From NCBI GenBank assembly GCA_951406725.2, contig OX597816.1:149048001-149112000 (forward strand): a DNA stretch of 64,000 nucleotides, written 5' to 3'. The DNA comes from Octopus vulgaris (Eukaryota). Position numbers and translations under genes: made by a program. Positions 16,458 through 61,932 of the stretch are shown here, piece after piece. How positions within the stretch are numbered: position 1 is the stretch's first letter; each line of letters opens with the position of its first letter. The notes beneath the pieces were generated by a model, which did no database searches, was not told the DNA's origin, and worked only from the letters and a program-made list of their open reading frames with translations.

Positions 16458-17837
16458 TCAAGTAAGACCATCTGCTTTATATAAACCTGTATTTTTGACA
16501 TTGGTAACTTGTGTTGATGATAATGGTAATCTGTCCCCTTCTGCTGTAAAAAGTCCTACAGGATAGACACTTTCACTGCTACCATAAGTCACATTGTTGT
16601 CAATTAATGGAGTTGTTATTGTTCGATTTAGTGGTTTAGAAGGGTCTTCTTTTATGAGTCTAGATTGAGAACACAGTTTTCCTTCACTATATGACACAGG
16701 AGATAAGTCAGAAACTGGAGAACTTTCAAATACATTAGATTTTAATTTGGGTGATGTTCCATATATCTTATTTATTGTTGCTTTGCTATTTGTGGTATCT
16801 GAAAATGGTAAGCTAAAATCTGTAGTGGATATAGCTATAGAATTCAAAGGAGTGTTTAGCGCCTGAGAACTATCAGAAACTGAACTAGATGTGCAAGCTC
16901 TTTTATTCATTTGACCATATTTATCATCAGGTCCTACAGTCTCGATTTTTACAGTGGGAAGGATAACTGAACCAAATGGAGAGTTGCCACTGTTAGTGTC
17001 CAGAGATGCAGCCTCAAACTCTCGCTTAACGGTTCTGACTGTACCTTCTTTAAGCTGTGCTAATTCATTCTGGGAAATCTGCTTAATATCCTCTGTAGGA
17101 ACAGTTGAAACAGAAGATGGCATCTGCCTGGTATCATCAAACGCAGTGACTGTTGAAGTAAGTAGCTGACATGCTCCACTTGTTGTTGCTTTGCTATTTG
17201 TGGTATCTGAAAATGGTAAGCTAAAATCTGTAGTGGATACAGTTATAGAATTCAAATGAGTGTTTAGTGCCTGAGAACTATCTGAAACTGAACTAGATGT
17301 GCAAGCTCTTTTATTCATTTGACCATATTTGTCATCATCAGGTCCTACAGGCTCGATTTTTACAGTGGGAAGAATAACAGAACCAAATGGAGAGTTGCCA
17401 CCGTTAGTGTCCAGAGATGCAGCCTCAAACTCTTGCTTAATGGTTCTGACTGTACCTTCTTTAAGCTGTGCTAATTCATTCTGAGAAATCTCCTGCTTAA
17501 TATCCTCAGTAGGAACAGCTGAAACATCAGATGGCATCTGCCTGGTATCATCAAACGCAGCGACTGTCAAAGCAAGTTGCTGATGTGCTCCACTTTGAAG
17601 ATGAGCATCACACATATTTTGTAAGTCTTTCATGTCTAATTGTTTTGCAATGACTTTTAGCTGTTGTAAAATATTAAGATCAAGATCTAATAGTCCAGTA
17701 TACATGTATTCAGTAAAAGCCATTAAAGTTTCTGTGCTTACTTCAGGAAATTTCACTTCATAAAACTGAGAAGAGATGCATGTACTAATTACTGAGAACA
17801 GTTTTGGAGACACAGCAGACAAGACTATTTTATGGAC
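16458..17837 (-). CDS. BTB/POZ-domain protein paralog 1, last coding exon (C-terminal part of BTB, duplicated S/T-rich linker, conserved tail)
   Basis: tttcag|GTC acceptor; VHKIVLSAVS...FPEVSTETLMAFTEYMYTGLLDL...AKQLDMKDLQNMC is a BTB signature; 1380 nt open to TGA. Confidence 0.9.
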   Translation of the reverse strand, partial: VHKIVLSAVSPKLFSVISTCISSQFYEVKFPEVSTETLMAFTEYMYTGLLDLDLNILQQLKVIAKQLDMKDLQNMCDAHLQSGAHQQLALTVAAFDDTRQMPSDVSAVPTEDIKQEISQNELAQLKEGTVRTIKQEFEAASLDTNGGNSPFGSVILPTVKIEPVGPDDDKYGQMNKRACTSSSVSDSSQALNTHLNSITVSTTDFSLPFSDTTNSKATTSGACQLLTSTVTAFDDTRQMPSSVSTVPTEDIKQISQNELAQLKEGTVRTVKREFEAASLDTNSGNSPFGSVILPTVKIETVGPDDKYGQMNKRACTSSSVSDSSQALNTPLNSIAISTTDFSLPFSDTTNSKATINKIYGTSPKLKSNVFESSPVSDLSPVSYSEGKLCSQSRLIKEDPSKPLNRTITTPLIDNNVTYGSSESVYPVGLFTAEGDRLPLSSTQVTNVKNTGLYKADGLT

Positions 17838-18315
17838 CTGAAATATAGTAAATGATAACAGTATGTTTACAGCTTGCCAACAATACATTGATAGACACTT
17901 AAGAATCATGTTCATAAAATAGAAAAATGTAAGTTTGTTTTTCCAACTCTTACAAAAGCAATTGACTACCAAAAGTCGTAAGTCTCTGGAAGTTGATTTT
18001 AAACTTCATTCATTTCAAAGCGTTTCTTTTTCTGTAAAATATTCTATTTTATATTAGTAAACAAATGTTTCAGTAAAAGCTATTTTCAAGGATTGAATCA
18101 TAAAATTTTCTGATAATAATAAAACTTAAAGCATATCAGTATTTATATATAACTTGATAAAGGCTACACCTACCTTTAAGAAATATAGAGGGAAGCAGAA
18201 GAAAGAATAGCTTGATATTAAGCACATTAGAAATTAAGCATAATTTTTTAATTATCATGATAATGACATTGGAAACAGTTGATAAATGTGAAAAAGTTTA
18301 CAACTGTATACTTAC

Positions 18316-18657
18316 CATCACAGTAGACGAGCCATTGCTAATACTGGCATCACATAATTTTCTACTTCTCCACATAGATGCTAGGTTAGACATGACAGAA
18401 TGTTCATGACTAGTAACTAGCAATTTTTGTTTCGGTAAATCTGTTTTTCTAATTATTGATTTAGATACAGTTGTTTGATTTGGATCTTTCACCAGCTTTG
18501 ATTTGGATGGAGTTATTTCAAATGGTGAAGTCAACACCTGAGCTGGCTTTGTAATATTTTGCGATGCTTGTGCTAAACTTGAATCTTGCTGGACTGGCGT
18601 TTTAGTAGTTAGTTGTACACATTTTGAAATCTTTGGAGTTGGTAAAGCACTGTCCAT
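18316..18657 (-). CDS. BTB/POZ-domain protein paralog 1, first evident coding exon (predicted protein 573 aa)
   Basis: ttttag|GCAAATG acceptor at 18661; ends ...VMSNLASMWRSRKLCDASISNGSSTVM|GTAAGT, joining phase-0 to VHK at 17837. Confidence 0.85.
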
Positions 18658-20226
18658 TTGCCTAAAATGAAAATGTGCAATTCATTGAGAAGAAATATAT
18701 ATAAGAGAAGAATAATAACTCAATAGTATTGTCAAAATACCATTTTAGTCATCACATACCATCTGTCATGTGATTGTTGATTTCTTAACCTTTGATTCTT
18801 CACGTGTTGCTCCCCAATGTGCTCTACCTTGTTCTGTTTTTTTATGTATCATTTTCATTTGAGTGTTGAGGAAGTGAGGCATGATCAAACAAAGAAATAA
18901 AGATTTCAGTTAAGTGGAAATAATTTGGACAGTGATGAATAAATAAATTATGTTAATGAAAATGTCAATGATAACTAAAAATTCTTGTTTGTAAGACTAA
19001 CAAATAATACTGAATTCCCATATTGAAACTTCCACTAAGGAAAAATGGAATCTGTTAGGCACATAAGTATACGGCAAATCCCAAAAGCATTCAAAATCAA
19101 CATGAACAGAGAATCTCTACAGAATTCTAAAACTGAAATGAGAATGGAGCTGGATGTTATACTTATCCTATTCTGAAATCTGACATGATGGTAACATGTA
19201 ATTTGTCTTCAACATCAAATATATAGTAACTGCTGCCACAATTCACACAGATTTTCTATGGTAGCTTTTACCCAGAAAGGTTTTCAACATTGTAATTCCT
19301 GACTGAATTTATAATTCATTTGACAGTAGTGTCATTACATTTGTATTTTTATCACATACATTGATTCCAAAATTATACTCAATTGACATGGATAGCGATC
19401 CCTCAACACTGTATAGTATTTAACTCATTCTTAATGAAAATTGTGGAGTGGCTACAATACTAAAAGTTTACATCACAAGAAACTTCATATCATGAGGCTT
19501 CTTAATACATTTATCCTACATGTATCTTTGGTTTCTGAAATTAACTGCAATATCAATGACCTTCCAAACAAATTCTGGAAGCAAATGTTTGTTCTATTTC
19601 TCCTATATGTGTGTGATGCTTAAGAAGGTATACCTGATTTATCTACCTTGAGAGCTGCAAGATGAGTTTTACTCCACCATTTCTGAGCTTCTAATCTTGC
19701 CTGCCATTGTTCTGCTGTTTCTGCCAGCAAACTTTGGCTTTGGTAAGGAATCAATGGCACTAGACGTGCTAGGATTGAGCTGAAAATTTACACACCTATA
19801 GAAGGTGTGGTGTAGTTACGGCCAGAGTAGGTTTTAAGTCTCTATCTCGATAACAAAGCCCGAAACGATGCATTTTCTGCGAGCGAGTGGATGTCATACA
19901 CTATTGCCTTGAGTTGTGTTCACGCAACATGTTGGATTCTATGTATGACTGTGCACGTGTTTGCACGAATGCAACAGAAAAATGGGGCGAAAACACATTC
20001 AAATTTTGAGCTTTCTGAAAAACAAAATATGAGCATATACGTAGAAAAATTTCCTGAATCGGTTGGAGCAAGTTTGAATTCTCTAGCTTGAAAAATGCAA
20101 ATTCTAGCAGTTTTGAGTGTGCCTCTTTAAGGAGTTCTCAGTTGAAAATGGTGTCAAAAAATAGCTCAAAATGAGAGAATTGTTTTGCAGACTGCTTCAA
20201 AAATCGAACGGGAAGTGTTCTTAATA

Positions 20227-20618
20227 TCTTTATATATAAAGCTGAAGTTGTCTGTGTGTGGCAGGTTTGGCAGCCTTCAACTAACACTATCTCCCCCGAG
20301 ACCCTGCAGCGCAAGTTGACCAAAATTGAGAGTACGATAGAAGAAGGCTTGCTCTTCATTCCGTAGAAGATAAAATTCAAATCGGACCATGTTAAGACCA
20401 AAAATTATTTACATCAAAAAGCTGCTTTTTTTTCTATGAAAATCCCGATTTTTTATGATTTTTTTTACTGCTGTGTCGCCATTTTTCGGTGTATTTCAAC
20501 CAGAAAAATGTTCACTTAAAGAGAATAACAAGCTACATAATGCAAAATTTTTACTTTTCAAAAATTCCAATTCTAAACAATTGAAACACACCTGAGCAAC
20601 GCCAGGCGATACTGCTAG
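20227..20618 (+). mobile_element. Complete 392-bp non-autonomous Helitron
   Basis: A|TCTTTATATATAAAGCTG...cctgagcaacgccagg hairpin...CTAG|T; no TSD. Confidence 0.9.
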
Positions 20619-21021
20619 TTTCAATAATATGTTTTGCAAGTTAGAATAAGTAAAAATCAAATGCATGAACAGTATGAGGGTAAGGCAAGACATCTCACAT
20701 TTTCTAATTTTTCTTAGGTACTATTCTACCACATAAGCATACAAAATAATGCATAAATTCAACATTTTTGCTAGATTTCTGAAACTCTATACAACACAGA
20801 GCAGTGGGTGGAAGGACATTGTGATATTGCGCTAGCAGCAATGTAAGGAGAGTAGCGAGGCAAAAAGTGGAAGGGATGAGAGTAATGGAGAGTGGCTGGA
20901 AAGGATAGTGAATTTATGGCGTTGAATTAAATCCATAAATGTGAGGAGAGTGAAGGAGATGGGAGTGATGGAGAGACTGACATGAGGATGGCCGGACTGT
21001 GGTGGCATTAGTGGAGTTGGC

Positions 21022-24000
21022 TTATTGCAGCGCTTCTTTGTAGACGACGTTTCTTGTTTTTGCGGATTGCCGCATATGAAGAGGTTTCGCGGATCTCCAA
21101 TACGTGAGCAACCAACGTAAAGTTGACCATGAGTAAAAACATCTTGGGTCAGGTTTAGTCCAACAACTTAGAGTGATTGGCCCTGAGCTTTATTTATACT
21201 CATGCCAAAACAGACTTTTATTGGAAATTGTTTGCATGTAAACTGGAATGGACTGTCAGACGGACTTAGACTGATTGGAGTTAGCAGTTTTGTCATGCCT
21301 GCAGATGGCCCGCTTAGAATGACTGTTGTGAGAATGCGAGTGCCAATATCTTTGATGATAAGTCTCGTCCCGTTGCACAGTTCTGGTGGGTCGATGTTTC
21401 GAAGCAGCATAACTGGAGTGCCAACTTTGAGTCGGAGGTCATGAGGTGGAAGTCCAGAAATTTGTAACGTGTTGAGGAATTCGGTGGGATAGTTGACAGC
21501 ATCATCAGCGTTGTTTGTAGTGTTGATGGACTTGAATGAGTGTTCGTTCCCAGGAATATGGTTGAGGAGATTTTGATTAATGGCGTCGACATTTGCATTG
21601 TGTGGGGCTAAAATGGCTCTACCTTGCAGCCAGTTGGAATCATGAAATTGAGCTTCAAGATCAGGAAAAACTACCAAAATTAAATCATCAATACTTTCAA
21701 CAAAATTTCCGAAGAGAAGACTAATATGGTCTGCATCGATTGCAGTTGCAGTTCCGTTTCCAACATCGAGTAATTGTCTGCAGAATACTTCAGTATCTGC
21801 GTCCCATTGCAAATGTACTCTCATGTTGGTGGTGAGGTGAAGTTTTTCAACATGACGCCAAAGGTAAGACGATGTGATGCATGCTTTCACTTCATCTGCT
21901 CGTGTGCCCCCAGTGATGACAGGAAGGGTTTGCCGGAAATCTCCAGCCAAAATAACTGTTGCTCCACCCATAAGTCTTGGATTTCGACGCAAGTCCTTGA
22001 GAGCTCAATCCAAAGCCTCAAAAGCCGACTTATTGCTCATTGTTGCCTCATCCCAAATAATTAGACAGCAATCGGAAAGGAGTTTACCTCTTGGCGTGCC
22101 TCAATCTATTTCGCAAGATGGATTCTCTTTCTTTGCAATAACCAAGGGAAATTTGAAGGCTGAATGTGCTGTGCGACCGCTATGCAACAAAGTTGCAGCA
22201 ATTCTGCTTGATGCAACTGCCAAAGCAATTCTCCTGTCTTTTCGCAGATTTGCGAGGAGAAGGTTGATGGCAAAAGTTTTACCTGTGCCATCAGGTGCAT
22301 CCAAAAAGAAAAGCATGCCTTCATTTGAAACGGCACTGGTGAAAATTCAGTTGTATGCAAGTTGCTGTTCAGGCAAAAGTTTTGGTTCATCTCGAGTCAC
22401 CATTTCAGTCAACTCTTCAATGTTATAGTCCAATTCAGAAATGTATTCTGAATCTAAAACGCCATCTCTGTAGACAGGGCTTGGAATACCGAAATGACAA
22501 ACACCATCAAATCCAGCAGCTCTGAGACGTCTGTCGATATCAAGTAGAGCCTCATAGTAGATCTCATTGTTGTATTCGCGTGCATGCAGTCTTCGCAAAA
22601 TATCTTCTGACATGCTGTCTTTGTGTGCCTCCCACAGTTGGAGGGGTTCGCTGACATCGCAAAATCGTAACATACTGCAAAACAATCGCCGCCTTTGTTT
22701 TGGCAGTTTACAATCAGCAGCCTCAACGCCAGGTGCAGATGATTGTCGTCTTCAAGAAGTCCGTGCCTCACACACACCTCCCTGTAAGTGGGACAAATTG
22801 TGCTGTCAAACATTCTGAGGTCAGCAAATGACTTGGGTCCTCTAACTTGATGCAGTAGGGTTCTCAAGAAGAAGCACTCTTGTGCACGTGGATGAACAGT
22901 GAAAAGACGTCCGATTGCATCACTTCTCTTTACACCGGGCCAATTATCGACATCTCCATTTTTCCTTCGACTATGTGATTTCTTTGACCATGTATAGTAA
23001 ACTGGTACATCGTCATAGAGAAGTGTTGCAGCAAATGCATCTCAGGAGCAAAGTTTGAAGAATGCCATAAATTTTGTCTCCAGCAGCTGTTGAGCGACAA
23101 TTTGGGCATTCCGCTCCGTGAAATAGGTGCGCTGCCCATTCTCCAAATGAACATCAATGAACTCGTAAATGTCAAAACCGAAAATCCTCCAAGCCGCCAC
23201 ATTGGAAGAAATGTATCACCCCATGACATATTGCTGGATTTCGTCATTTTGATTCATGCCACCGCTGATGCCAATCACCACCCTTGTTGATGTATTTGGA
23301 TATGTATTTGATGCTTCTGACAGAGGTGCAGCTCTCAACGTTGATGTGTGCTTTGAAGATTTTTGCGAGCAGGGGGCTGTAGGGCACAACCCAGCAGTTG
23401 TCAACGAAGTAAGTGACACCGTCTCTCTTTACCTGAACTGCAATGCCACCGAAATCAGGAGCGCGCCACCGATAAATGGGATAGCTGTGGGTTCTGGTGC
23501 AAGCTGTGCTCACGAAGTCTTTGGGATAATGCTTGCTGCATTTGTTATTCTCCATGCATGCTTTTCTGGGGTTGAGAGGAACACAAGGTCTGTGCAAAAG
23601 ATTGGTCAAAACAATGTTATGAAGCTCTGGATCAACGGTGGGATCTGGAAGCTCAGCACTGATAACTATCAATGTCTGCAGGTCTAATTTTTTCTTTGCA
23701 CCAAATAAGAATATGTGCATACGGAAGGCCCCGCTTCCGCCATTCCACAATGTACATCCAGGCATTAAGAGGACTGTAGATTTTCTCCTTCTTCAGCAAG
23801 GACATCAGGAGATTAAGCTTGAGTTTGAAGACTAATTTCATCTCAGGTCTTGAGTTCAAAAACTCTGCAGCAGTTTTTAGCTCACGGACGTAAGGGTGGC
23901 TGTAGTGAAGCATTGTTTGAAGCTCTGCAATGATATTGCGACTTAAAGGAGGGTTTTTGCTGCATCTATGAGAAAGTTCTTGCTCATGTCCACCCATGAA

Positions 24001-24780
24001 GAAAACCTGCATAAATCGTGGCTCCTCTCCTGATTGTGGGAGAAGGCTCCCAATTTTGTGGTAACATTGGCCATGAATTTGGAAAGTAAAAAGCTTTTCT
24101 TTGGGCCTTGTAACAGTGGTTTGAGAAGTGCTGGCAACCTCAGTGTTGTCAGTGTTTGTCCTTGTTATTCAGCTGTCACTCACACCAAAAGACATCATCG
24201 AAAAACATGAGTTGTATCTCTATAAACTCTTTCGAAACAGCTTTCCGTGGTCAGAGTCACTGGTGAGGTCCTGGATTATTTTGGGAGGAGCAGCCAGTGC
24301 CTCAAGATGAACTTTGCCCCCGGAACAGCAGAGACCTGGAGTCTCCCCTCTCCACTTTTTCGCCCCGCAGTATTTGCAGACTTGATCCATCTGTCCTATA
24401 GAAACGTCGGCTCGCGTAGTCATAAGTAGGATCATAGTTGAAACCTACCATCAACCAAAAATTTTGTTCTGGACGATGTCGTTGTTGTCTTCAACGTTGC
24501 TGGTCCTGCAAACGAATCTTCCTGGCCTCCTAATTCTCAGTCATACGGGTGAATCGATCCCTTTCGCGCTGGGCAGAAAGACGTGATTCTCTGGCAGCAG
24601 AAGTCTCGCTTCTTCGTGATTGCCTGGTGGATTAGGAGAAAGGGCAACGCTCACATGCCTCATTACTCTCTTCGATGCATGAAAGGGTCGAACTATCATT
24701 TTGTTCAGCAACAGGAAATTCCACTGATTGCGGCGTTTCCTCAGAAGGAAGACCCTGTAGAGACGGATAGCATCATTCAA
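21022..24780 (-). pseudogene. Helitron 2 RepHel (zinc finger, Rep HUH endonuclease, PIF1-like SF1 helicase); many frameshifts and stops
   Basis: CKYCGAKKWRGETPGLCCSGGKV; EWRKRGLPYAHILIW (degenerate HUH motif); SIKYISKYINKG; FFLDAPDGTGKT (Walker A); LAGDFRQTLPV; FPIKVCFGMSINKAQGQSL; FTHGQLYVGCSR. Confidence 0.93.
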
Positions 24781-25705: not shown

Positions 25706-27949
25706 AGAAATAGTAATGAATTGTATGTATAAAAATGTCTGGGTAATATTGTAAGTCAATGGAGATATCACATTTGCACATTTTAGGTTACTTGTAAATG
25801 GGCCGTTTCATTTTAAATATTATGATTATGAAAATATGCTGAATAGAAGAGTTTAAATGAAAAAAAAAAAAACGAACCACAACATTGAGACAGAAGCTTT
25901 GGCTTGGAATGCTGTGTTCGGCAAAGGCGGGTTCACTTGGCCCTAGGATTTTCTCCAAAAGGAGGTTTTGTTGTTGAATAGCAAGAGAAGTAGCCTAATT
26001 GGGAAAGAGTAAACAAAAAGACTACATCAGGGAAGGTATATAAAGTTTACACTGATGTATGGAAATAGCATTAAAACAAAAAGTCCAATTTACAACAACA
26101 TTGAATGAAAATGAATAGATCAGAGAAATTCCTTAGATTCAAATGGTCAGCCAGGTTTCAAGTTTTAAATAACGGAACGGAAAAAGAGCAAGTTCAGCAA
26201 TATTTCAACGAAAAAATGTAATATTTAGGCAAAAAAACGTACCTGTGCACGGGCCTTCCTTCTTTGCATTTTACGGGTTCTATTTCGCTTATCAGAAAGA
26301 TTTGAGCGTTTTCGGTTTGGCATATCGTAAAATATACTACAAAAGAGTGACAAAAGGTTCTTAATTATATTTAAATCAATGATTTATAGCACCTGTCTGA
26401 TAAATTTCACTATGTCAATCGATGAACAGCCATTAGACAATATCATGCATCTCATGTTAAGTCCTGAAGCGTACGAAGATGCTTATATGGTGTAAAAAAT
26501 CGAATTTTAGATTAAAATGGGAGTTTAAAAAGAGCAAAAATACAAACAAAAAGTCTGCGTGAGCAAAGCACCTATCAAGAGAACAGAATGTACTCGAATG
26601 AAACGTTGGCAGAAGAGTGTCACAGCAAGTAATAAATCGAAAATTATTTACTTTGCGTTTTATTTACTTCGTTCACCAACATGTATCGTGCACGTGCGAT
26701 ACAAACATGTATCGCGAATCTATTCATTTGCATACGCGCAAGTCGTTGTAGGATCTACTACTTATGACTAGCTAGCGCGGATGCGCGACTCCGAGTGCGC
26801 GCAGCACCGGGACCGCTGTTCGCTTCGCTAGTAGTACCAAATACACTACGTTAGTTTCGTGTTTCATTGAAGCACGTTGATAAATTATTATTAATTTTTG
26901 TTTTTATAAAGTCCCTAAGGCTTCGTATTTTATTCCCAGAAAGTTTGTTATAAGAAACAATTCGATTACAGAGTTTTTCTTTGCTAATATTTTAAAAAAC
27001 GTATTGTGCGTAATGCCGAGTTTTTCTAGATTTTCTATGCAGTATATATAATTAAGATATAGCATCACATCTATGTAGAAGATAGTTACATGATACAAAT
27101 ATTATTCACTAAAGCACGGCAGGCATGATTAACCAGTCATGGCAAGTAAAAAATATGGATGACTCGGAGGAAACAAAAGAATTATGCTATTTAAGATGTG
27201 AAAATAATAGAACCACATTAAACGATTTTCGAGTATTTCATAATAGCAAAGTGAAGGGAATAAATTAAACCTACCCGAGAAGGGACAACAGTCGCTGAAA
27301 TATTCGTTTTCAGAGACTCCAAGTTCGATAACTCTTCTTACTTATTGAATTAGCTTTTTCAACTAGCCTCGGATAAACATCAATGATGATATCTCGGCTG
27401 AGCAAAGCTTCAAATTTCAGTAAAATATTATTTAACGTCAATGGATTTGAAATTATTTATATTTAAGTAAATATTTATACTCAATTTCTGTCTACCAAAT
27501 CCACTCACAAGGCTTTGGTCAGCCCAAGGCTATTGTAGAAGATACTTGCCCAAGGTGCCACACAGTGAAACTGAACCCAGAACCATGTGGTTTGGAAGCA
27601 AGATTCTTATCACACACTTACACCTGTGCATGTATAACATAGTTCTCAGGGAGATTCAACATGACATGGAATGCAACAAAGTTTGCCCTTTTAAATTCGG
27701 GTACATACATATACTGAGGCCTATTCCCCATTTTTTTATTTTTCAGGAGTGGGTAGCCACAGCAAGACACACACCAAGCATTCCATTTATTTCCCAGCTC
27801 AAAGGGGCAAGTCCCATTCTATGCTTGGGTCAAGGCGTAGAACACAACCTCCAATATCAGCAGTGGGGCCTGACAGCTTATGCTGGTTTACACCCACTGT
27901 ACACTTTTGAGCAACATCAAAATTCACTTATCCATCTACAAACACTCTC

Positions 27950-31797: not shown

Positions 31798-32766
31798 TCA
31801 CATAAGATCATCTGCTTCATATAAACCTACATGTTTAAGATTTGTATGTTGTGTACATAATGGTACGTTGTCCCTTCCTGCTGTAAAAAGTCTTATAGGA
31901 TAGACACCTTCATTACTACCAGATGTCATAATGTTCTCAATTGACTGGATAGTTGCTATACTTTGGTGTAGCATTTTAGATGCATCATTTTGTATGGAAA
32001 TAGACTGGGAAGACCTTTTCTCTTCAATGCATGACACAGGAGGTAAGTCAGAAACTATAGAGCCTTCAAATACATTAGACTTTAATTTACATGTTGGTCC
32101 ATATATCACATGTGATACTGTATTGCTTGAAACTGGAGTGGATATGTAAGCCTCATTGTTCAGTTGACCATATTTCTCATTATCAAGCCCTACAGGTTCA
32201 GTTTTCACTCTGAGAACAAAATCAGAATCATTTGAGCAGTCACCATATGTATTAGCATCCAATGAGTCAATTTCAGATTCCTGTTCAATGACACCAGCAG
32301 TACCATTTTTAACTTGTGCTAATGCAGCCTCACATATCTCTTGTTTAACATCAATGACTTGTGTAATGAAAGATGGAGTAGATTGAGATGTAACTGATGT
32401 GATGGATGATGAAGGCAGAGATGGTTGAACTGTTGGCACTGTGATATTGGTTGGAACTGGCAGACCGGCTTGTGTCTGGTTCTGCCTAAGATCAGTCGAC
32501 GGTTGGTTTATTTTGTTTATAAGATTGTTATCACACATTTCTTCAAATTTTTTCATTTCTAATTGTTTTGCAATGATTTTTAATTGCTGTAAAATATCTG
32601 GATCAAGATCTAAATATCCATTGTACATGTATTCTGCAAATGCATTTAAAGCTTGTGTACTAACTTCTTCTGGAAAGTTTATTTGGAGAAACTTCTGAGA
32701 GGAAATATTTGTACTAAATACTGACAATAGTTTTGGACACACAGCAGATAGAATAACTTTATGTAC
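31798..32766 (-). CDS. BTB/POZ-domain protein paralog 2, last coding exon
   Basis: tttcag|GTA CAT acceptor; VHKVILSAVCPKL...FAEYMYNGYLDL...AKQLEMKKFEEMC; 969 nt open to TGA; tail homologous to paralogs 1 and 3. Confidence 0.9.
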   Translation of the reverse strand, partial: VHKVILSAVCPKLLSVFSTNISSQKFLQINFPEEVSTQALNAFAEYMYNGYLDLDPDILQQLKIIAKQLEMKKFEEMCDNNLINKINQPSTDLRQNQTQAGLPVPTNITVPTVQPSLPSSSITSVTSQSTPSFITQVIDVKQEICEAALAQVKNGTAGVIEQESEIDSLDANTYGDCSNDSDFVLRVKTEPVGLDNEKYGQLNNEAYISTPVSSNTVSHVIYGPTCKLKSNVFEGSIVSDLPPVSCIEEKRSSQSISIQNDASKMLHQSIATIQSIENIMTSGSNEGVYPIRLFTAGRDNVPLCTQHTNLKHVGLYEADDLM

Positions 32767-34183: not shown

Positions 34184-34278
34184 TTATCAGCATCAAACAG
34201 TTGATCATCAGTCTGCACCTGCTCTGTATATTGTTGCTTCATTGATTCTTCCGAATAACATTGATTTGACAATTCTGC
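34184..34278 (-). CDS. BTB paralog 2, 95-nt upstream exon (AELSNQCYSEESMKQQYTEQVQTDDQLFDADK)
   Basis: ctttcag|GCA acceptor, AA|GTATGT donor and an 89-nt intron; joins in frame (AA+A CAC ATG) to the next exon. Confidence 0.7.
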
Positions 34279-40925: not shown

Positions 40926-41157
40926 CTTTTATTTATTATTTACTTTTTAGCCTGGAAAATATTCTAAATCGGAACTTTAAATTCCTGCGGCCGCCCACGA
41001 TGATTTCACGACTTCAAATGACATTCAGATTATTTACACTTTAGCTCTTACTTCAAATATGTGAATTATCTACCTCTCTCCGTAGAATGGCCATATTCGA
41101 AACTTTAGAATTCGTGTTTTCTTTATGAAAAACAAACTTACTTCGCACATCATGAAC

Positions 41158-41797: not shown

Positions 41798-43863
41798 ATG
41801 GCTACTGGTCACTACGAGGCTAAGGCGCAAGTCAAGCGTGACGCCAAAACAAAAAAGCAGGATTCCCTGTCACCATGCGCTGAACTTGACAGTTTGAACG
41901 CTACTAACACCACCACCATCAGCATCGACAACAGCAACAACTACATAACAAAGGTCGCAAGGCCAAGCACCGTCACCGCCACCAATGATTCCACCATCAA
42001 CACCGACACCAATGATTCCACCATCAACACCGACACCACCACCATGGCAGCTTCTGCTACCTCTGCTAACGATACCACTAACAACAACAACAAAACCAAG
42101 GTCGCAAGGCCAATCCCTGTCACCGCAACCAATGATTCTACCAACACCGACACCCTCCTTGACAACGCTTACGACGTTGAGTTCCCCATACTGCTTTCAC
42201 CACAATTTCATAAAGCAGGGGAAATGGGGAAAAACAACACGAACACAAATGTGAGCATGAACGCTAACATCGCGACCTCCACTCAAAAACTGGTAAACAA
42301 CCCTACTTCACAGTTATCTACTACTACGAACGACTCTGCCACAAACATCACCACCACCACCACCTCCACAAAAAACAATTTCGTGGAAGCCATACGACCG
42401 AAAAGAAGAATCCTAAAATTTACTCACCAACAAATACAAGACACAAAGTCCTTGCTCACCAAAGAAGGTGACACAATGCATTTAAATATTCCATAGAAGA
42501 AACACAAAAGAAGACCATCATTTACAGAATACTCAACACCAAAACAAAAAGACCAGAAAGCCTACCTAAAGGAAAAATTGAAAAGTGCCTCTCTTCCGTG
42601 TGGAAATTCCGAAATTATGTGAATTGGGGAAGTAAATTTGCTACCGTGCAAGTTCGCTTTCATACGGAAGAACTAGCAAAAAAGTTTTCAACCCTTACTC
42701 TGCGCACAGGACAGGTAACAATGGTTACGAAAGTTACGCAGAGTTACGAAAGTTACAATATACAATGTGCCGCCAGTAGTGAATACCTAGTGGCTGGTAT
42801 CGGCCATCTGCTTCGATATAGAAGAAGCAGATATTTTAGAAATAGCTGATATTCCATAGGAAAGCTGGACTGGTAAAATACTCGAAATATTGCTTCAAAT
42901 CTCCCAAGAAGCAATAAACAATTTACCATCCAGTGTTCAACTGGCAAAAGGTCAAAAATTGTATGTAGTGGTGGAGGACAGGAGGCCAAGATGCTATTTA
43001 TGCAACAGTGAGGCACACCTTAGATATGAGTGCCCAACTGCTGTCAGAAATAGGCAACAGCAACCACTCCCCAAACCTGGAAGGAGACCCGTGCTACCCA
43101 CACCACCTTCAACCCAAAAGACAGGAAAAACAGCGGACGATACAAAAACTGTTTCCCCCTCACCAACCACATCACCAAGAAGAGAATTACCTCCGACATC
43201 ACAACCAACAAAAGAAACAACATCACCACCAACATCAGAAGACAGACCAACACCAGCACCAAGAACAACAACCAAAAAAACAAATAACAATGACGAAAAG
43301 ACAAATTCTGCCCCTAATACCCCAACAACACAAACAGCACACAAAACAACAACACCTTCTACAAACACACATATAGATCCAAACGCTTTGCCTTTACCCC
43401 CTTCTGATTCGTCGAACTCGTCGTCCAACGACGAAAGTTCGACGGAATGGCAAATAGCCACAGGGGGTAAAAGGAAAAGACCAAAAAAGCCCACCAAACA
43501 AGTAAGTAAAGCAGGGAGATATTTAACTTCGGACAGCATCCCCTTAGACAATGAAAAAAAATCAATGACCCCGCAAAACCACACACACAACTAACAGCAA
43601 TAGACACGGACAATAAAAAACTAATGGATTACATTGCATCCAACACGAACATCTGCGAAGATGACTTTAAGACAATCATCCACGCACCACTCCACCGAAA
43701 CACATAAGAATTGTACACATAACACAAACACAACACCATACACTGAAAACCATATTTCCAAATGCGGTTGGGGGGTTTCAAAAATACCTCTCAAAAAAAC
43801 TATTCAAACATCTCCGCAAAGACACTACAAAAGATGAAGAAAAAACTGAAACTTTCGAAATGA
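41798..43863 (+). pseudogene. LINE A ORF1 (T/N-rich leader, RRM-like region, CX2CX4HX4C knuckle, P/T-rich tail); disrupted
   Basis: RRPRCYLCNSEAHLRYECP; several in-frame stops and frameshifts. Confidence 0.8.
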
Positions 43864-43937
43864 GTAAGTCACCTTCCCTCTTGCCTCTTGTCTCTTCCAG
43901 TGCAGTGTGTGAAACACAAATTTCTTAAACGTCAATT

Positions 43938-46900
43938 ATGCTTAAATTAGGTTGTGTGAATGCGCGTGGCTTGGCATCAGCTTGGAAACAAGGTTACCTT
44001 CTAAACAACATCAAGTCACTGAACGTGGATATGGTAGCTATCAGTGAAACCAGACTCAGCAAGCCGCGGGTCCTCGCGTGCATGTTTGGCGACCAATTTG
44101 ACATTTATTTTTCTCTCTGTCTGCCGAACATGGGTGGTGGAGGTACCGTGGTGCTTTTTCGAAAGAATCTAAATGTAAAAGTAAGAACAATATTCCTAGG
44201 CTGGTTGTCTTGGACGTGGATGGCAGAAATGGGTGTGCATTCTGTCTGATGGCAGTTTATGCACCGTCCTTAACGGGTCGGGCGGATTTCTTCAGACGTC
44301 TAGAGGTTTTCCTGGGTACGTCTAGACCTTTACTGTTAGTGGGGGATTGGAACGCTACCTTGGACACGCATATAGATTATGTGGGAATGGATAGGAATAG
44401 AAGGGGGTGTAAGTGCCTCAAAGACCTACTCAGACGTTTCCATTTGTCTGACAGGTTCCGACTCCACCATCCGAACGTGGACTTGGACAAACCGTGTCGG
44501 ATCGTCGAGATCTTATCTAGATAGAATTCTATGCAGGACAGCGGATAGGGATAGTGTAGGATGTCCACAATTTAAAATAGTCAGCTACACAGATCACAAA
44601 TTTGTGACGTGTACGCTCGACTTAGATAAGACACATAGACAGGGTCCCGGTTACTGGAAATTGAACACGTCGCTCTTAGCGCGACAGGTTTACAAGAACC
44701 GGATTAGCGAGCTAATTAAGAGGGCGCTGGCGGGAGCCGTCGTTAACAACCGCTGGTGGTTCGCCCTGAAAATGGCAATAAAATCGGAATCAATTAGGTT
44801 TAGCAAGGAATTAGCGATAGATCGAAATAGAGTAGAGGGAGACCTGGTTAAGAAACTAGAAGAGGCACTTACCACTGGCAGCACAACCAACGTGCTGGCT
44901 GCGAGGATGGCCCTCGACCAATACCTCAACGCCAAGCACGAAGGTTGTGTCGTCAGAGCTAAAATGCGTGCCTTAAGGAACGAAGCTGTGCGAGAGGCCC
45001 GGGTAGCGGAGGCGCAGCGTGGCAACAGAGCCACCATTCGGTCTCTAATAGATCAACAGGGATGCAGTTTACTCGAACCCGAAAGGATGTGTGAGGCCTT
45101 TCAACAGCACTTTGCTCGACTGTTTTGTGCGAGTGGTGGGTCGGAACGCGGGATGGATTTCAGTGCCTACCTGACCGACCTGCCGCGGCTCTCGGCAAAA
45201 GAAGCGGAGTGTTGTGAAAGTCCCATCACAGCCGCTGACGTGCGGGCTGCGCGAGTGATAAGTCGCCTGGATTGGATGGTTTACCCTACGAGCTGTATTG
45301 TCAAATGCCAGACTTGTTTGGCGACCTCTTGGCATCAGTCTACTGCAACTGGCAACAAAACGAGAGAATCCCTGGTTTCGTGAGCCGAGGTGCAGTGACG
45401 TTGCTGAAGAAAGATCCAAACAAGGGGAATTTTATAGATAATTTCAGGCCCATCACTCTGCTCAACGCAGATTTGAAAAAGTAATAGCCGAGAGGTTGGC
45501 GCTTGTCATTGGTAAACTGGTCGACAGGGCGCAAACATGCACCGTGCCGGGCAGAACCATACATGACAATCTCCATCTGATGCGCTACATTGTGGACAGG
45601 GTAGTTAAGGATTCTGACATGGGTGGGGCGCTGATCAATTTGGATCAGTCTAAAGCCTTCGATAGGGTCGACCATCGGTACTTGGCGGCTGGCTTCGGTC
45701 CCGTCTTCCGCGGTTGGATCGCTGCCTTGTATAGCGGCATCCGATCGGTGATTCGGGCGAACGGCCACCTGTCGAAACCGTTTGACATCACGCGTTCGGT
45801 CCGTCAGGGGTGTCCCCTGTCGGCGCTTCTGTATGTATTGACTCTCGAGCCGCTACTGCGGAAGCTGGCGACACTGAGGGGCATCCCATGGGAACTGGGT
45901 TGCGGGACGAGCGTGTCGGCATATGCGGACGATGTCACCGTCATACTGTCGAGCGAAAAACACATCCAGATGATAGGCGAGACACTAAGAAAATACGAAA
46001 CGGTGACGGGAGCGAGGATTAACCCGGAAAAGTCAGTGGGTTTGCTACTCGGCACCTAGAGAAGCAAGCCCATGCCGTCCGACTGCGGCTCAGTAGTGGG
46101 ACGCTGGACGGACGGACCGGTTAAATTGCTCGGGGTCTGGTTCAGTCCGAACCTCCAAATGGATAAGAACTGGAACGAGATCACGAATAGAGTGGTCGCT
46201 CTCAGCCAAACATGGGCCGAGAGAAAGCTGTCTCTAAAAGGTCAGGCGGAGGTGTCGAACGCGTACATCGCATCCGTCATCGATTACCGCCTGACCGTCG
46301 TGCCTTGTCCCGGCGCCACCATCACCAAACTGGAACGCATATTCTTCCGCTTCCTGTGGAAGGGTGGCGTTCCAATGGTGAGGAGGTCCATTTGCTGTCA
46401 ATATCCGTTGAATGGAGGACTGGGCATGCCGTGGTTGATGATGCGCTGAGACTGCGACATCTCTGGAACTTCATCGATGACGGTGAACAGGTGTGGGCGC
46501 CGTTTGTGAGGCGCGCCTTCCCGTAGCACGTCTCACTGACCGAAGTGCAAACGTGGATCAAGAAGAGACCGAAACTGGGCGATTGGCACCAAGAGTGTCG
46601 CCAAGCTCTACAGCAGCTCTGCCGACCGGGGTCAAACTTGTGCAACTTACAAACGACTAAAGCGTTCTATAGAGGACTAGTGGAGGGGAGGTCCGACGAC
46701 ACACTCGGGGCAAATCTGGTCGTCGACGAGAAATTCCTAACCCGCCTGTTCAGGACGACGTTCGGGCCGGGGCTTATGGATAACTTCCAGAAATCCCTGG
46801 CTTGGCAATGCTATCGAGACGCACTACCTGTTCGAGAGAAGAGCTACAGGCACGGTTCGAAAACCATCACCGGACCATCCTGCCCGAGATGCAGTCAGAG

Positions 46901-54249: not shown

Positions 54250-55020
54250 CCCAGAAAATAACTATATACCATGCCAACAAAAGCCAGGTACAGGGGCTTA
54301 TCTTTGGTTAGGTATTTCTCCTGCAGTTGTCGAACCAGGAATATGGTATTAGTGGTGCTTCCACCTGGCACAAAACTGAACTACCTCTCATCTAAGCAGA
54401 CTCTGTCCCTGATGAGATGGGCTATGACCCACCTCCGTGACCTTCGTTACCTGATCCAGCAGTTTGATACCTCTGTAGTTATTTCTATCTAGAGCATCAC
54501 CTTTACCCTTGTAGCAGTTGACCATGGTGCTGCTACGCCAGTCGTTGGGTATGATTCCATCATGAACTACCTGGTTTACAATGTGGGTGACTAGGCCATA
54601 GCCTACAGCAGCAGATGTTTTAAGCATCTCAGCAGTGATTTCTGATGGGCTGGGGGCTTTTCCTGGCTTCATACCCTTAATTGCTTTATCTACTAGGGAG
54701 CTGTCTATACGGATAGCTGGTCCTTCTACTGGGTGAACATTTGGCAGGCTCTCCTCCTCCCATTCATTCTCCACATTCAGCAGTCTTTCATAATCGCTTC
54801 TCCAAGCCTCTTTCTTTTCAGAATCATTAAAAGCAAGTGCACCATCATCCATTCGGACACATTTCTCTCCTGTGACATCACAATTTTCTCTCACACACTG
54901 TCTTGCAATCTGAAATGGCTCAGTTCTTTGGTCCTCATGTTCCTGGACACTGGCAAACTTCTTTTCTGCTTCGCTCTTGGCTATGTATACCGGCCACCCA
55001 GTCTCCCTTTTGGCTGGGTG
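54250..55020 (-). mobile_element. Internal RTE-clade LINE ORF fragment (linker plus start of RT)
   Basis: KGMKPGKAPSPSEITAEMLK...IPNDWRSS...YKGKGDALDRNNYRGIKLLDQ. Confidence 0.85.
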
Positions 55021-55551
55021 GCAGGTATACATGCATATATATATATATATATATACACACACTTTTATGTGGTATGTAAGAGCAGCCCTGGTCAAATTGT
55101 TCAACTCATGCAAGCCTGGGCAATGGACATTAAATGATGATGTGCATGTGTATATATGTATATATATATACATAGACACTTTTTTTTATGGGTCAACAAG
55201 GCTACTAATGATTTCATAGAAAGAGGGATAGCTTTTGCCTCCATTTTGGATGAGAATACACGAATTTACACAATACTGTATAGAATTTTGGGATAAATTT
55301 ACAGATCATGGTTGATAACTTATAAAGAAATCTTGTTTTCTTATAAACAGTTTGTGCAAAGGCTTTATGGATTTAGGTATTCTATAGAAAAATCCAACAA
55401 TAAAGGAATCTAGTTGTTAGCTATTGAATTTGTAAAGAGATTCTTACAAAACAAAAAAAGGTTTTTTTTTCAGAGAAATCAAACAAAACAATTATTTTGG
55501 AAATTTTTAATATACAAATATAATTATTTATCAAAATATAAATACTCAGTC

Positions 55552-55622: not shown

Positions 55623-56579
55623 TCAAGTAAGGTCATTTGCTTTATATAAACTTATACTTTTGACATTGGTAACTTGTGTTGATGATAATGGTAAACTGTC
55701 CCCTCCTGCTGTAAAAAGTCCTACAGGATAGACACCTTCATTGCTACCAGAAGTCACATTGCTGTCAATTGACTGAGTTGTTATAGTTTGATTTAGTGGT
55801 TTTGAAGGGTCTTCTCTTATGGGACTGGACTGAGAACACATCTGTTCTAAAATACATGATGCAAGGGATAAGTTAGAAACTAGAGAACTTTCAAATACAT
55901 TAGATTTTAATTTAGCTGTTATTCCATGTATTATATCTGTTGCTGCTTCATTTGAAACTGTAGATGTATCAAAATGTTTATTCAGGTGACCGTATTCGTT
56001 ATCTTCAGGCCCTACAGGTTCGATTTTCAAACTAGGGGCCATGCAAAAATTTTCAGAAAAGTTATTTTTTGTACTACTACTCAGTGATCCAATCTCAGAT
56101 TCTTGTCTGAAGACATTAACTTTATCCTTCTTAGCCAGTGGTAATTCAGTCTCAAAAGGCTCTTGTTTAATATCAAATGCTTGTGTAGTGATGGATGGAG
56201 TAGACTGAGATGTAACTGAAATGATAGATGATGATGATGGTAGAGGTGGTTGAACTGATAGTTCGGTCTGTGTGTTGTAATGGTCACCTAAGACAGTAGA
56301 TGTTGAAATATGTGGTTGAGATTCTTCATATGGAAGACAACTATCACACAGTTGTTCAAATTCTTTCATGTCCAAACGTTTTGCAATGATTTTCAACTGA
56401 TGTAAAATATCTGGATCAAGATCTAATAATCCATTGTACATGTATTCAGCAAAGGCATTTAAAGCTTGTGTACTTACTTCCTCTGGAAAGTTAATTTCAA
56501 GAAAATTGCGAGAGGGGATATTTGTACTAAATACTGACAACAGTTTTGGACACACAGCAGACAGGACAACTTTATGTAC
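55623..56579 (-). CDS. BTB/POZ-domain protein paralog 3, last coding exon
   Basis: tttcag|GTA CAT acceptor; VHKVVLSAVCPKL...FAEYMYNGLLDL...AKRLDMKEFEQLC; 957 nt open to TGA. Confidence 0.9.
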   Translation of the reverse strand, partial: VHKVVLSAVCPKLLSVFSTNIPSRNFLEINFPEEVSTQALNAFAEYMYNGLLDLDPDILHQLKIIAKRLDMKEFEQLCDSCLPYEESQPHISTSTVLGDHYNTQTELSVQPPLPSSSSIISVTSQSTPSITTQAFDIKQEPFETELPLAKKDKVNVFRQESEIGSLSSSTKNNFSENFCMAPSLKIEPVGPEDNEYGHLNKHFDTSTVSNEAATDIIHGITAKLKSNVFESSLVSNLSLASCILEQMCSQSSPIREDPSKPLNQTITTQSIDSNVTSGSNEGVYPVGLFTAGGDSLPLSSTQVTNVKSISLYKANDLT

Positions 56580-60700: not shown

Positions 60701-60745
60701 AGTTTGGGAGCGAGGAGTGAGTGGGAAAGCCAGTTGTAGGGGGCA

Positions 60746-61035
60746 TGTGGTGTTAGTAGTGTTATGGGCTGTGATGGAGCTATGTGGTGTTGGTGGAGGG
60801 GATTGCAAATGAGGTGGACAGAGGTAAGGCTTGCAGGGGCCGGCAGAAGAGTCACAGGGGCATGCATGGGCAGGAAGCATGTGTGGCCAGTTTGAGCAAA
60901 GACAGCAGAGAGACAAGACGTGTTTAATTCGTGAGAGTGACTGCTGATTTCGCCAAGGTCAACAGGTAAGGCCTTTTGTATTTTTTTCTCCTGTTTGCTT
61001 CTTTTTCTGTTGCCCTTATCCTCCATCACACTACA
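60746..61035 (+). repeat. 3' LTR (290 bp)
   Basis: TGTGG...CACACTACA followed by TSD TATTA. Confidence 0.92.
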
Positions 61036-61482
61036 TATTATAAAACACACTGAGAAAGAGAAACTTGTGTTACTGGACACTTGGAACTAACATATTTTTT
61101 ATGGCATATAAGATGTACTTTTTTACCAAAAAAAAAATGTTTCAAAAAGTTGGGCCTCCCATAAGCTTGTATTTTCTCGTATGTTTTATTACTGTAATCA
61201 TGTAGAATATTTTCACTAGCATGATTCCTGAATTTTGGTTGAGTTGCACTGCTAACTTACTTTTTATATACAGTGATGTTTTCTGCTATAGCTAAAATAT
61301 TTCTCTAATCTTTTGTAACATATACTAGATTACTTTAAATATTACATGCTTTTATCCACTAAAACTCTTTTTCTTGAATATGCACTATGGAAATTGTGGG
61401 GGGCATCTATTGTTCTATCAAGTGCAGCAACTATGTTGGAGGCATTTCTAAATACTAAAGTTTTAAAAAGCAATATACTTAC

Positions 61483-61932
61483 CATCACAGCAGATGAACC
61501 GTTACTAATACTAGCATCACACAGTTTTCTATTCCTCCACAACGAAGCAATGTTAGACATCACATGGCGCTGATAATTAGCAATTACAAATATCTGTTTC
61601 CGTGGAGTTTTTCCCACAGAACAGCGGGCTTGTGTTTGTTCTGCGGTTTCAGCTGCCCTTGCTTTGGCTGTGGCAGCGGCATCTAGAGAATGGCGGGCCT
61701 GTTTTTGTTTTGCAGTTTCGGCTGCTCTTGCATTGGCCATGGCAGCGGCATTTCGTGAACGGCGGGCCTGTGTTTGTTCTGCGGTTTCAGCTGCCCTTGC
61801 GTTGGCCAAGGCAGCGGCATTCAGAGCTAATCGAGTAGCTCTGTCTTGGAGTGCCTCTTTGGCCCTTTTGGCCCTATGAGCCTCTGCACCAGCCGTCCTT
61901 CTTCCAATGCGGACCCTCTTCTTTGGGGGCAT
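61483..61932 (-). CDS. BTB paralog 3, first coding exon: Helitron-like N-terminus with 23-aa repeats fused to the BTB N-terminal half (468-aa model)
   Basis: AAAATG start; MPPKKRVRIGRRTAG...AETAEQTQAR repeats...RHVMSNIASLWRNRKLCDASISNGSSAVM|GTAAGT; phase-0 join to 56579. Confidence 0.82.

What the first reader, a model, noticed from the sequence alone, without database searches (positions are those of the whole stretch)
16458..61932. Tandem family of BTB proteins with swappable N-termini and a conserved, unrecognised C-terminal tail
Seen: three same-strand paralogs share the intron position (NGSS(T/A)VM|VHK), an S/T-rich linker, a KLKSNVFExSxVSxL block and a terminal motif VYP(V/I)xLFTAxxDx(L/V)PLx...LYxAxxL(T/M)-stop. 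None has a C2H2, Kelch/BACK or MATH domain, and the N-termini are unrelated (P/T/K-rich in paralog 1, repeat exon in 2, Helitron-like in 3). Known: BTB transcription factors normally place BTB first and DNA-binding domains last. Inference: an inverted-architecture, lineage-specific family. Members with and without DNA-binding modules could heterodimerise via BTB, possibly to target Helitron-derived sequences in the way KRAB-ZNFs target TEs in tetrapods.
Basis: partly seen in the sequence, partly recalled or inferred. Interest (0 to 1): 0.72.

Follow-up and report, generated by a model that had tools for sequence, protein, structure and literature searches.

The report
Octopus BTB genes, swappable DNA-binding heads
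Three neighbouring octopus genes are fast-evolving copies of a parent gene that, in database gene models, splices about 19 different transposon-type DNA-binding heads onto one shared dimerising body, a mirror image of the fruit-fly mod(mdg4) design.

Summary
The three BTB genes are real, all on the minus strand, in Octopus vulgaris. The N-termini are not unrelated: paralogs 2 and 3 carry 23-residue STPR-type repeats, and paralog 3's are fused in mid-exon and closest to a Helitron N-terminus. Paralog 1's 'P/T/K-rich' stretch is a shared constant exon. The tail is predicted disordered. Its similarity among the trio is DNA-level (low dS, dN/dS about 1 or above), and only SUMO-type psiKxE sites and a short YP[VI]xL motif are deeply conserved. 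The larger result lies outside the window. The trio are fast-evolving daughters of a conserved parent (O. bimaculoides LOC106877732, with an Argonauta ortholog). Its gene models join at least 19 different 5' modules (THAP, CENP-B, FLYWCH, Psq, Tc1-like), 13 of them mapped across about 180 kb, to one constant BTB body. This is mod(mdg4)/lola logic with reversed polarity and a non-Tramtrack BTB. A 2023 survey listed these isoforms as separate genes. My searches found no paper describing the array. Isoform evidence is gene models, not reads. DNA binding, dimer pairing and transposon targeting are untested.

The parts
16458..17837 (-). Paralog 1 last exon: BTB C-terminal part, S/T-rich linker with a 138-codon internal tandem duplication, five psiKxE sites, YP[VI]xL tail, stop
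   Evidence: Pfam BTB E 2.8e-8; 100% to named O. vulgaris record P0061; duplication; motifs
18316..18661 (-).
   Evidence: 52 of 99 identical to the parent's constant exon; GT donor after NGSSTVM
18760..18833 (-). Paralog 1 small linker exon; weak acceptor, the position where paralogs begin this exon reads CAA and the A-run has one extra base
   Evidence: 25 of 25 identical to O. sinensis P0062; sequence; comparison with paralogs by eye
25878..25994 (-). Paralog 1 putative exon 2 (from the O. sinensis RefSeq model)
   Evidence: tblastn of P0062, 85% with a 6-aa insertion; in frame
26243..26323 (-). Paralog 1 putative first exon, 27 basic residues with a Helitron-type start; may be the first exon of the decayed Helitron below it
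   Evidence: tblastn of P0062; five-exon model open to the stop; similarity to the window Helitron start is weak, 22 of 1000 shuffles
21171..24755 (-). Decayed Helitron (STPR-like remnant, Rep, PIF1) lying inside paralog 1's putative intron 2
   Evidence: Pfam Helitron_like_N E 5.8e-10, PIF1 E 1.4e-20; frames
31798..32766 (-). Paralog 2 last exon: BTB C-terminal part, linker, two psiKxE sites, tail
   Evidence: Pfam BTB E 3.7e-8; 88% to O. bimaculoides LOC106877744
33794..34094 (-). Paralog 2 constant pre-BTB exon plus BTB N-terminal part
   Evidence: 62 of 87 identical to the parent's exon; four-exon model equals library protein P0014 exactly
34184..34278 (-). Paralog 2 small linker exon
   Evidence: canonical AG/GT, part of P0014
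39661..40065 (-). Paralog 2 first coding exon: four to five basic 23-aa repeats, STPR-like but deviant (Met for Glu1)
   Evidence: 69-nt period; lag-23 0 of 2000 shuffles; register; no Pfam STPRs or FMBP-1 match
55623..56579 (-). Paralog 3 last exon: BTB C-terminal part, linker, two psiKxE sites, tail
   Evidence: Pfam BTB E 4.6e-7; 100% to named O. vulgaris record P0003
56826..61035 (+). Decayed LTR-type retroelement in the BTB-splitting intron of paralog 3
   Evidence: terminal repeats 86% over 308 nt; RVT_3 and DUF7047
61483..61626 (-). Paralog 3: surviving 3' part of the constant pre-BTB exon plus BTB N-terminal part
   Evidence: sister copy P0004 residues 119-167 match here at 92% and stop matching at 61626
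61627..61932 (-). Paralog 3 head: Helitron-type start and 3.5 STPR repeats, fused in frame without an intron
   Evidence: Pfam STPRs E 6e-4, 20.6 bits under the cut-off of 27; Atlas top hits STPR and ZNF821; only PDB hit FMBP-1, E 0.82; best match the window Helitron N-terminus, E 7e-15, 0 of 1000 shuffles
1780..3169 (-). Second decayed Helitron whose ORF begins with 23-aa repeats; internal evidence that octopus Helitrons carry this head
   Evidence: 69-nt repeat; lag-23 0 of 2000; repeats run into a Helitron-type zinc motif and Rep-like ORF by eye; no Pfam match for these ORFs

Best explanation
The window holds three tandem daughter copies of a modular octopod BTB transcription-factor gene. 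In the parent, many alternative 5' exons, each encoding a transposon-type DNA-binding domain, are spliced to one constant body: low-complexity linker, long-form dimerising BTB, and a disordered tail with SUMO-consensus sites and a short terminal motif (shown at gene-model level). Daughters arose by duplicating the constant body with little or none of the array, and mostly carry a 23-aa STPR-type head. Paralog 3's head was captured from a Helitron 5' end by an intronless in-frame fusion after it split from its sister copy (fusion shown, donor inferred). Likely working (inferred): the head binds DNA, with STPR reading AT-rich major groove by shape; the BTB forms obligate dimers, so co-expressed isoforms of the parent pair different DNA-binding domains; the SUMOylatable tail and BTB surface recruit chromatin co-factors. 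That is an architectural or repressive factor of the mod(mdg4)/BEAF type, with the daughters as derived, faster-evolving modulators.
For: Six RefSeq isoforms of LOC106877732 share an identical 534-aa C-terminus with different heads of 130-224 aa; Pfam gives CENP-B/Tc5 (2), THAP, FLYWCH, a weak HTH and one unassigned. Table1.XLSX of PMC10027918 shows 16 distinct heads on that body; 13 have coordinates from 320,408 to 500,350 on scaffold KQ422521, all minus strand, and the splice entry point steps downstream with position in 13 of 13. Union: 19 heads. Other loci show the same: LOC106877745 (CENP-B, FLYWCH), LOC106879774 (two FLYWCH); library pairs P0047/P0048, P0034/P0035. Tree of 40 BTB rows: window genes and kin form a clade (97/96) next to parent plus Argonauta ortholog (95/83); the join of the two is only 86/88. 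Parent BTB is 99% identical between Octopus and Argonauta; daughters are 87-95% between two Octopus species. BTB dN/dS 0.26-0.36 among the trio. Daughter LOC106877737 carries a near copy of the parent's distal THAP exon (about 104 of 114, by eye). Model: confident BTB at 120-231, best folds BCL6/NS1-BP/PLZF type. psiKxE 48 observed against 3.6 expected in 25 proteins; YP[VI]xL in 17 of 25 against 0.1 expected. Two short-contig proteins, P0009 (539 aa on 1788 bases) and P0010 (474 aa on 1961), join a head to both BTB halves without introns, as a spliced transcript would.
Against: Isoforms are predicted models; I saw no reads, and the collinear order is what such a pipeline must output, so it is not an independent test. 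The parent locus is not in the window; adjacency rests on consecutive LOC numbers and a shared longest contig. Paralog 2's head fails Pfam STPRs and has Glu1 in 0 of 4 and Arg9 in 1 of 4 repeats; an HMM from two bona fide STPR heads hit none of the window heads. Paralog 3's repeats are Ala-rich with only 3-5 basic residues. Paralog 1's 5' end differs between annotations (P0061 has none) and looks damaged. Some models lack any head (P0001, P0002, P0004, P0066). No DNA-binding, dimer, SUMO or expression data.
Confidence: 0.68

Rival explanations
1. Transposon surveillance: each head was taken from a transposase and guides the BTB/SUMO body back to that element's ends to silence it, as KRAB-transposase fusions and KRAB-ZNFs do; the STPR daughters target Helitrons.
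For: Heads are of transposase types; STPRs are stably carried by HLE1 Helitrons (PMC11417382); paralog 3's head is a recent capture; daughters evolve fast; the window has two decayed Helitrons; SUMO-consensus sites suit a repressor.
Against: A parent THAP exon is 85 of 89 identical between Octopus and Argonauta (by eye); BTB dN/dS is well under 1; STPR recognition is mainly shape readout of AT-rich DNA, poorly suited to family-specific targeting; no binding data.
Confidence: 0.17
2. The parent is functional but the window copies, above all paralogs 1 and 3, are relaxed or decaying duplicates whose Helitron-like heads are chance exonisations; tail similarity is kept by gene conversion.
For: Overall dN/dS 0.42-0.53, linker up to 0.82; damaged 5' acceptor in paralog 1; truncated pre-BTB exon and an intronic retroelement in paralog 3; tail dS 0.04-0.25 against 0.52-0.79 in the BTB; five O. 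vulgaris copies of the paralog-1 type.
Against: All three last exons are open over 318-459 codons; BTB dN/dS 0.26-0.36; orthologs of each type persist in O. bimaculoides or O. sinensis; STPR heads recur in several daughter lineages and pass the Pfam cut-off in other family members (P0035, P0037).
Confidence: 0.2
3. The proteins are Cullin-3 substrate adaptors or nucleic-acid-independent scaffolds rather than transcription factors.
For: Best profile hits in PDB sequences are NS1-BP, KLHL3 and gigaxonin BTBs.
Against: No BACK or Kelch region; best fold matches are mostly BCL6; heads are DNA-binding families; the phi-x-E Cullin-3 motif is not visible after helix 3 (motif recalled, inspected).
Confidence: 0.05
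4. The multi-head parent is an annotation artefact: unrelated transposon remnants upstream of one BTB gene were chained to it by the gene predictor.
For: Only models were seen; one genome-project model (KOF74710) visibly concatenates several heads.
Against: The same THAP head on the same body is modelled in Argonauta (P0013) at high identity; the pattern repeats at other loci; heads are trimmed DNA-binding domains, mostly without catalytic parts (P0024 with DDE_3 is an exception); intronless head-BTB proteins occur on short contigs.
Confidence: 0.06

Closest known systems
Drosophila mod(mdg4) and lola
   Same: One locus, one shared BTB, 20-30+ isoforms differing in a DNA-binding module (FLYWCH, C2H2) (PMC11426971 passages).
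   Different: There the BTB is N-terminal, Tramtrack-type (FxLRWN), variable exons are 3' and trans-spliced, and the group is arthropod-only. Here variable exons are 5', the BTB lacks FxLRWN (0 of 12), heads come from at least five domain families, and mapped exons are all on one strand.
Drosophila BEAF-32A/B
   Same: Same polarity: alternative N-terminal BED fingers, identical remainder, C-terminal self-interaction (PMC5021357 abstract).
   Different: Two isoforms, one domain family, BESS rather than BTB; no tandem daughter genes described in what I read.
Host-transposase fusion genes (KRABINER, SETMAR, F-box A2, ZBTB11)
   Same: Transposase DNA-binding domain joined to a host regulatory domain; ZBTB11 has an integrase-like domain before its BTB (PMC12062965 passages).
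   Different: Those are single fusions per gene; here one body is served by an array of captured heads, and there are no C-terminal zinc fingers.
STPR proteins FMBP-1 and ZNF821; HLE1 Helitron STPRs
   Same: 23-residue repeats; Glu1 4 of 4, Thr2 3 of 4, Arg9 4 of 4 in paralog 3; relative P0037 matches FMBP-1 at E 1.3e-9.
   Different: STPR joined to BTB: no paper held both terms. Window heads score under the Pfam cut-off.
Octopus THAP-BTB and CENPB-BTB entries of Mukherjee and Moroz 2023 (PMC10027918)
   Same: The same proteins: the paper notes that Octopus THAP and CENPB factors carry BTB/POZ.
   Different: It counts them as separate genes and calls BTB a transposon part; 'isoform' 0 hits, 'promoter' 0, 'splic' only in a reference title. 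At least 12 of its THAP rows share the LOC106877732 body (it reports 25 Octopus THAPs). STPR daughters are not among its 30 BTB mentions in that table.
Vertebrate clustered protocadherins and UGT1A (recalled, no call)
   Same: Array of alternative first exons spliced to shared constant exons.
   Different: Variable exons there are paralogous copies of one domain type and do not encode DNA-binding domains.

Membership tests
BTB/POZ, long dimerising form | Pfam BTB above cut-off | tested here: met
   42.8, 47.5, 47.6 bits for P0003, P0014, P0061 against 20.5
BTB/POZ, long dimerising form | N-terminal extension helix and BCL6/PLZF-like fold | tested here: met
   Helix 120-133 precedes the core; Foldseek E 3e-8 to BCL6 and NS1-BP BTBs
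BTB/POZ, long dimerising form | Homo- or heterodimer formation | not testable with these tools
   No complex prediction was available; only a monomer was modelled
ZBTB (BTB-zinc finger) | N-terminal BTB with C-terminal C2H2 array | tested here: not met
   BTB is internal; no C2H2 in Pfam scans or six-frame patterns. Database names 'Ken-like' and 'ZBTB11' are not supported
KLHL / BTB-BACK / MATH-BTB | BACK, Kelch or MATH domain | tested here: not met
   None in window proteins or close kin
Tramtrack-type BTB (mod(mdg4), lola) | FxLRWN motif in the N-terminal extension | tested here: not met
   0 of 12 family members; motif from PMC11426971
mod(mdg4)-like modular gene (works like) | Many DNA-binding modules on one shared BTB from one locus | tested here: met
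   Parent: identical 534-aa C-terminus in 6 of 6 isoforms retrieved; 19 heads in all. Gene models only; not shown for the three window genes
mod(mdg4)-like modular gene (works like) | Trans-splicing | not testable with these tools
   13 of 13 mapped heads are same-strand and collinear, compatible with cis-splicing; needs allele-resolved long reads
STPR domain | Strict 23-residue tandem period | tested here: met
   Paralogs 2 and 3, 0 of 2000 shuffles each; not met for paralog 1's pre-BTB exon (304 of 2000)
STPR domain | Glu1, Thr/Ser2, Arg9 and Pfam cut-off | tested here: inconclusive
   Paralog 3: 4/4, 3/4, 4/4 but 20.6 bits under 27; paralog 2: 0/4, 4/4, 1/4 and no match
STPR domain | Binds AT-rich DNA major groove | not testable with these tools
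   Needs EMSA or SELEX
Host-transposase fusion (paralog 3) | Transposon-derived coding segment joined in frame to a host domain | tested here: met
   Junction at 61626 inside the constant exon; head matches the window Helitron N-terminus. Helitron termini upstream were not found
KRAB-ZNF-like transposon repressors (works like) | Sequence-specific binding and silencing of transposons | not testable with these tools
   No binding or knockdown data

The most novel reading that the evidence does not exclude
Octopods have a combinatorial transcription-factor system built as a capture platform: a constant BTB body sits downstream of a growing array of promoters and first exons taken from DNA transposons. 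Promoter choice, possibly cell-type-specific or stochastic as in clustered protocadherins, plus dimerisation through an identical BTB gives up to 190 head pairings from 19 heads of one gene. Tandem daughters such as the three in the window, still capturing Helitron heads, extend or poison the network. It would be an independent, reversed-polarity origin of mod(mdg4) logic and a candidate for cephalopod insulator or cell-identity machinery.
Probability: 0.3. Interest if true: 0.92.

Novelty: new variant of a known kind. Interest (0 to 1): 0.76.

Why it matters
If the gene models hold, a large share of the octopus 'THAP/CENP-B/Psq expansion' (at least 12 THAP rows of a reported 25) is one gene with a variable-first-exon array, which changes how that expansion is counted and explained. 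It would be a convergent, mirror-image counterpart of mod(mdg4)/lola, which in flies supply insulator and neural-wiring functions (recalled), and it gives named candidates for chromatin architecture proteins in cephalopods. The window shows the turnover end of the system: constant bodies duplicating and one acquiring a Helitron head in mid-exon, so transposase capture can be dated and tested in closely related species.

Tried and rejected
Tail as a new folded domain: rejected; pLDDT block means 36-51 beyond residue 240, no Pfam family at cut-off (one sub-threshold MAML1 TAD hit, E 0.009, in paralog 2 only), PDB best E 0.52, Atlas search of the constant region returned only BTB clusters. Tail as protein-level constraint among the trio: not supported; synonymous differences 1 of 28 sites in the tail against 33 of 81 in the BTB for paralogs 1 and 3 (Fisher p 1e-4; p 0.003 for 1 vs 2; p 0.24 for 2 vs 3; rounded counts, 35-36 codons), and paralog 2's tail is only 69% identical to its O. 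bimaculoides ortholog while its BTB is 95%. Gene conversion or nucleotide-level constraint remain open; high identity ends a few bases past the stop. Downstream zinc-finger or Kelch exons: none by pattern (one THAP-pattern hit near 6006 lies in repeat-rich DNA and is taken as chance). An HMM from P0035/P0037 repeats found P0015 and P0070 weakly and none of the window heads among 1642 targets. Paralog 2's head is not significantly like either window Helitron (357 and 530 of 1000 shuffles). The profile search for long forms (805-2295 aa) gave 1 protein among 8000 candidates, weak evidence. Tree: P0063 and P0036 were dropped (no anchor), fragments without the BTB N-terminus were not included, and long branches meet near the root. 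The script stopped with an error after the rows quoted; the rest was rerun. Complex prediction and cluster-member listing were not available, so dimer pairing, tail-BTB contact, full isoform counts and taxa of unnamed proteins are unchecked. No eukaryotic genome collection was available, so the O. vulgaris parent locus was not viewed.

Full report
Observation. Each has a phase-0 intron inside the BTB, with canonical GT/AG, and a long last exon that ends in the shared terminus. Pfam finds BTB and nothing else in the three last exons. Paralogs 3 and 1 match named Octopus vulgaris records at 100% (P0003, P0061), and a four-exon model of paralog 2 equals library protein P0014 exactly.

The heads. 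They are not unrelated. Paralog 1's P/T/K-rich stretch is the constant pre-BTB exon (52 of 99 identical to the parent's). Its O. sinensis ortholog model begins with an exon at window 26323, and that five-exon model is open in the window; it spans a decayed Helitron and uses a weak acceptor, so paralog 1's 5' end is uncertain. Paralogs 2 and 3 have 23-residue repeats (0 of 2000 shuffles each). Paralog 3's keep the STPR residues Glu1, Thr2 and Arg9 named in PMC4856987 (passages), hit Pfam STPRs below cut-off, and return STPR and ZNF821 clusters in the Atlas (score 0.87, a lead only). Their best local match is the N-terminus of a Helitron at window 3169 (E 7e-15; 0 of 1000 shuffles), and STPRs are a known stable part of HLE1 Helitrons (PMC11417382, two passages). 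The sister copy P0004 is 98% identical in the BTB but keeps the full pre-BTB exon, and stops matching at 61626. Paralog 3's head was therefore fused in mid-exon after that duplication. Paralog 2's repeats are more basic but deviant, and match neither Pfam, FMBP-1 nor the window Helitrons.

The tail. AlphaFold2 gives a long helix for the head, a confident BTB at 120-231 of BCL6/NS1-BP type, and no fold after it. Among the trio the last 36 codons are similar at synonymous sites too (dS 0.04-0.25 against 0.52-0.79 in the BTB; dN/dS 0.96-2.55 on small counts), which points to gene conversion or DNA-level constraint, not to a conserved domain. What survives in distant members (BTB identity down to 34%) is two kinds of short motif: psiKxE SUMO-consensus sites (48 observed, 3.6 expected, 25 proteins; SUMO meaning recalled) and a near-terminal YP[VI]xL (17 of 25, 0.1 expected). 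These 25 are related, so the counts are not independent.

The parent. Searching with paralog 1's last exon returned six RefSeq isoforms of O. bimaculoides LOC106877732 with an identical 534-aa C-terminus and different heads: CENP-B/Tc5 twice, THAP, FLYWCH, a weak HTH and one unassigned. The supplementary table of PMC10027918 (all 30 BTB places viewed, cells cut short) shows 16 distinct heads on that body. Thirteen have coordinates between 320 and 500 kb on one scaffold strand, and their entry point into the shared sequence steps downstream in order; a gene predictor would force such order, so it is consistent, not independent. With three further heads the union is 19. LOC106877745 and LOC106879774 show two heads each, and library proteins add CG-1, ZSWIM3-N/FAR1, DUF3504, DDE_3 and bona fide STPR heads. 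An Argonauta protein has the same body (BTB 99%; 465 of 531 over the constant region) and a THAP head 85 of 89 identical to an Octopus one (by eye). In the BTB tree the window genes and their kin form a long-branched clade (97/96) beside the short-branched parent (95/83), the join itself being 86/88. Named records cover three Octopus species and Argonauta only; the wider range is unknown.

Mechanism. Shown: architecture, shared body in gene models, descent, the mid-exon fusion, purifying selection on the BTB (dN/dS 0.26-0.36). Inferred: heads bind DNA; the long-form BTB dimerises, so parent isoforms pair different heads; SUMO sites and the terminal motif recruit co-factors; the result is an architectural or repressive chromatin factor. 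Rivals are transposon surveillance (0.17), relaxed or decaying daughters (0.2, not exclusive), Cullin-3 adaptor (0.05) and annotation artefact (0.06).

Comparison and novelty. It works like mod(mdg4)/lola (PMC11426971, passages) and has the polarity of BEAF-32A/B (PMC5021357, abstract), but is a member of neither: FxLRWN is absent in 12 of 12 and there is no BESS. It is also a serial form of host-transposase fusion (PMC12062965, passages, with no mention of molluscs in its main text; Cosby 2021 seen only as cited there). PMC10027918 (passages) records THAP-BTB and CENPB-BTB in Octopus but treats them as separate genes and BTB as a transposon part. Ten searches found no paper describing the variable-exon array or an STPR-BTB protein; the library lacks most subscription journals, supplements are not searched, and bioRxiv supplements were closed, so prior notice cannot be excluded.

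Verdict. The trio alone is a modest tandem family with a recent Helitron fusion. Its value is that it leads to a modular BTB gene sitting unremarked in public annotation. New variant of a known kind; interest 0.76.

Noticed in passing
window 41155-41302 vs 39726-39873: Inverted copy (145 of 148 identical) of part of paralog 2's repeat exon about 1.3 kb upstream; could pair as dsRNA if transcription starts above it.
   Followed up: partly
window 16772-17595: Internal tandem duplication of 138 codons in paralog 1's last exon (93% nucleotide identity), raising psiKxE sites from 2 to 5; the O. sinensis ortholog has a shorter duplication.
   Followed up: partly
window 16458-16570, 31798-31905, 55623-55735: Unusually low synonymous divergence in the last 36 codons, ending just past the stop: gene conversion or a nucleotide-level element.
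   Followed up: partly
window 26839-27482 vs 10232-10905: 675-base segment upstream of paralog 1's putative first exon is duplicated at 90% identity 16 kb away.
   Followed up: no
O. bimaculoides LOC106877732 (P0012 and supplement rows): For several THAP heads the last zinc-ligand region and C-terminal motif appear to be completed by a shared constant piece, so the domain itself is split across variable and constant exons (by eye).
   Followed up: no
P0034 and P0035: Different heads (CENP-B, STPR) share an identical 139-aa middle but have different, related last exons: possible choice at the 3' end too, or a model artefact.
   Followed up: no
P0055 and P0056: Distant BTB proteins (E about 1e-4) with an internal BTB and a shared, unannotated upstream block; possibly the same layout in another lineage.
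   Followed up: no
window 41780-46700 (+) and 54391-55185 (-): Decayed LINE with ORF1 and RVT_1 between paralogs 2 and 3, and a second LINE-like fragment just below paralog 3's stop.
   Followed up: no
window 3602-5724: About 550-base degenerate tandem repeats with strong GC skew upstream of the Helitron ORF at 3169.
   Followed up: no
window 20226-20619: Short non-autonomous element, by eye with Helitron-type ends, related to 7806-8030 and 8810-8974.
   Followed up: no
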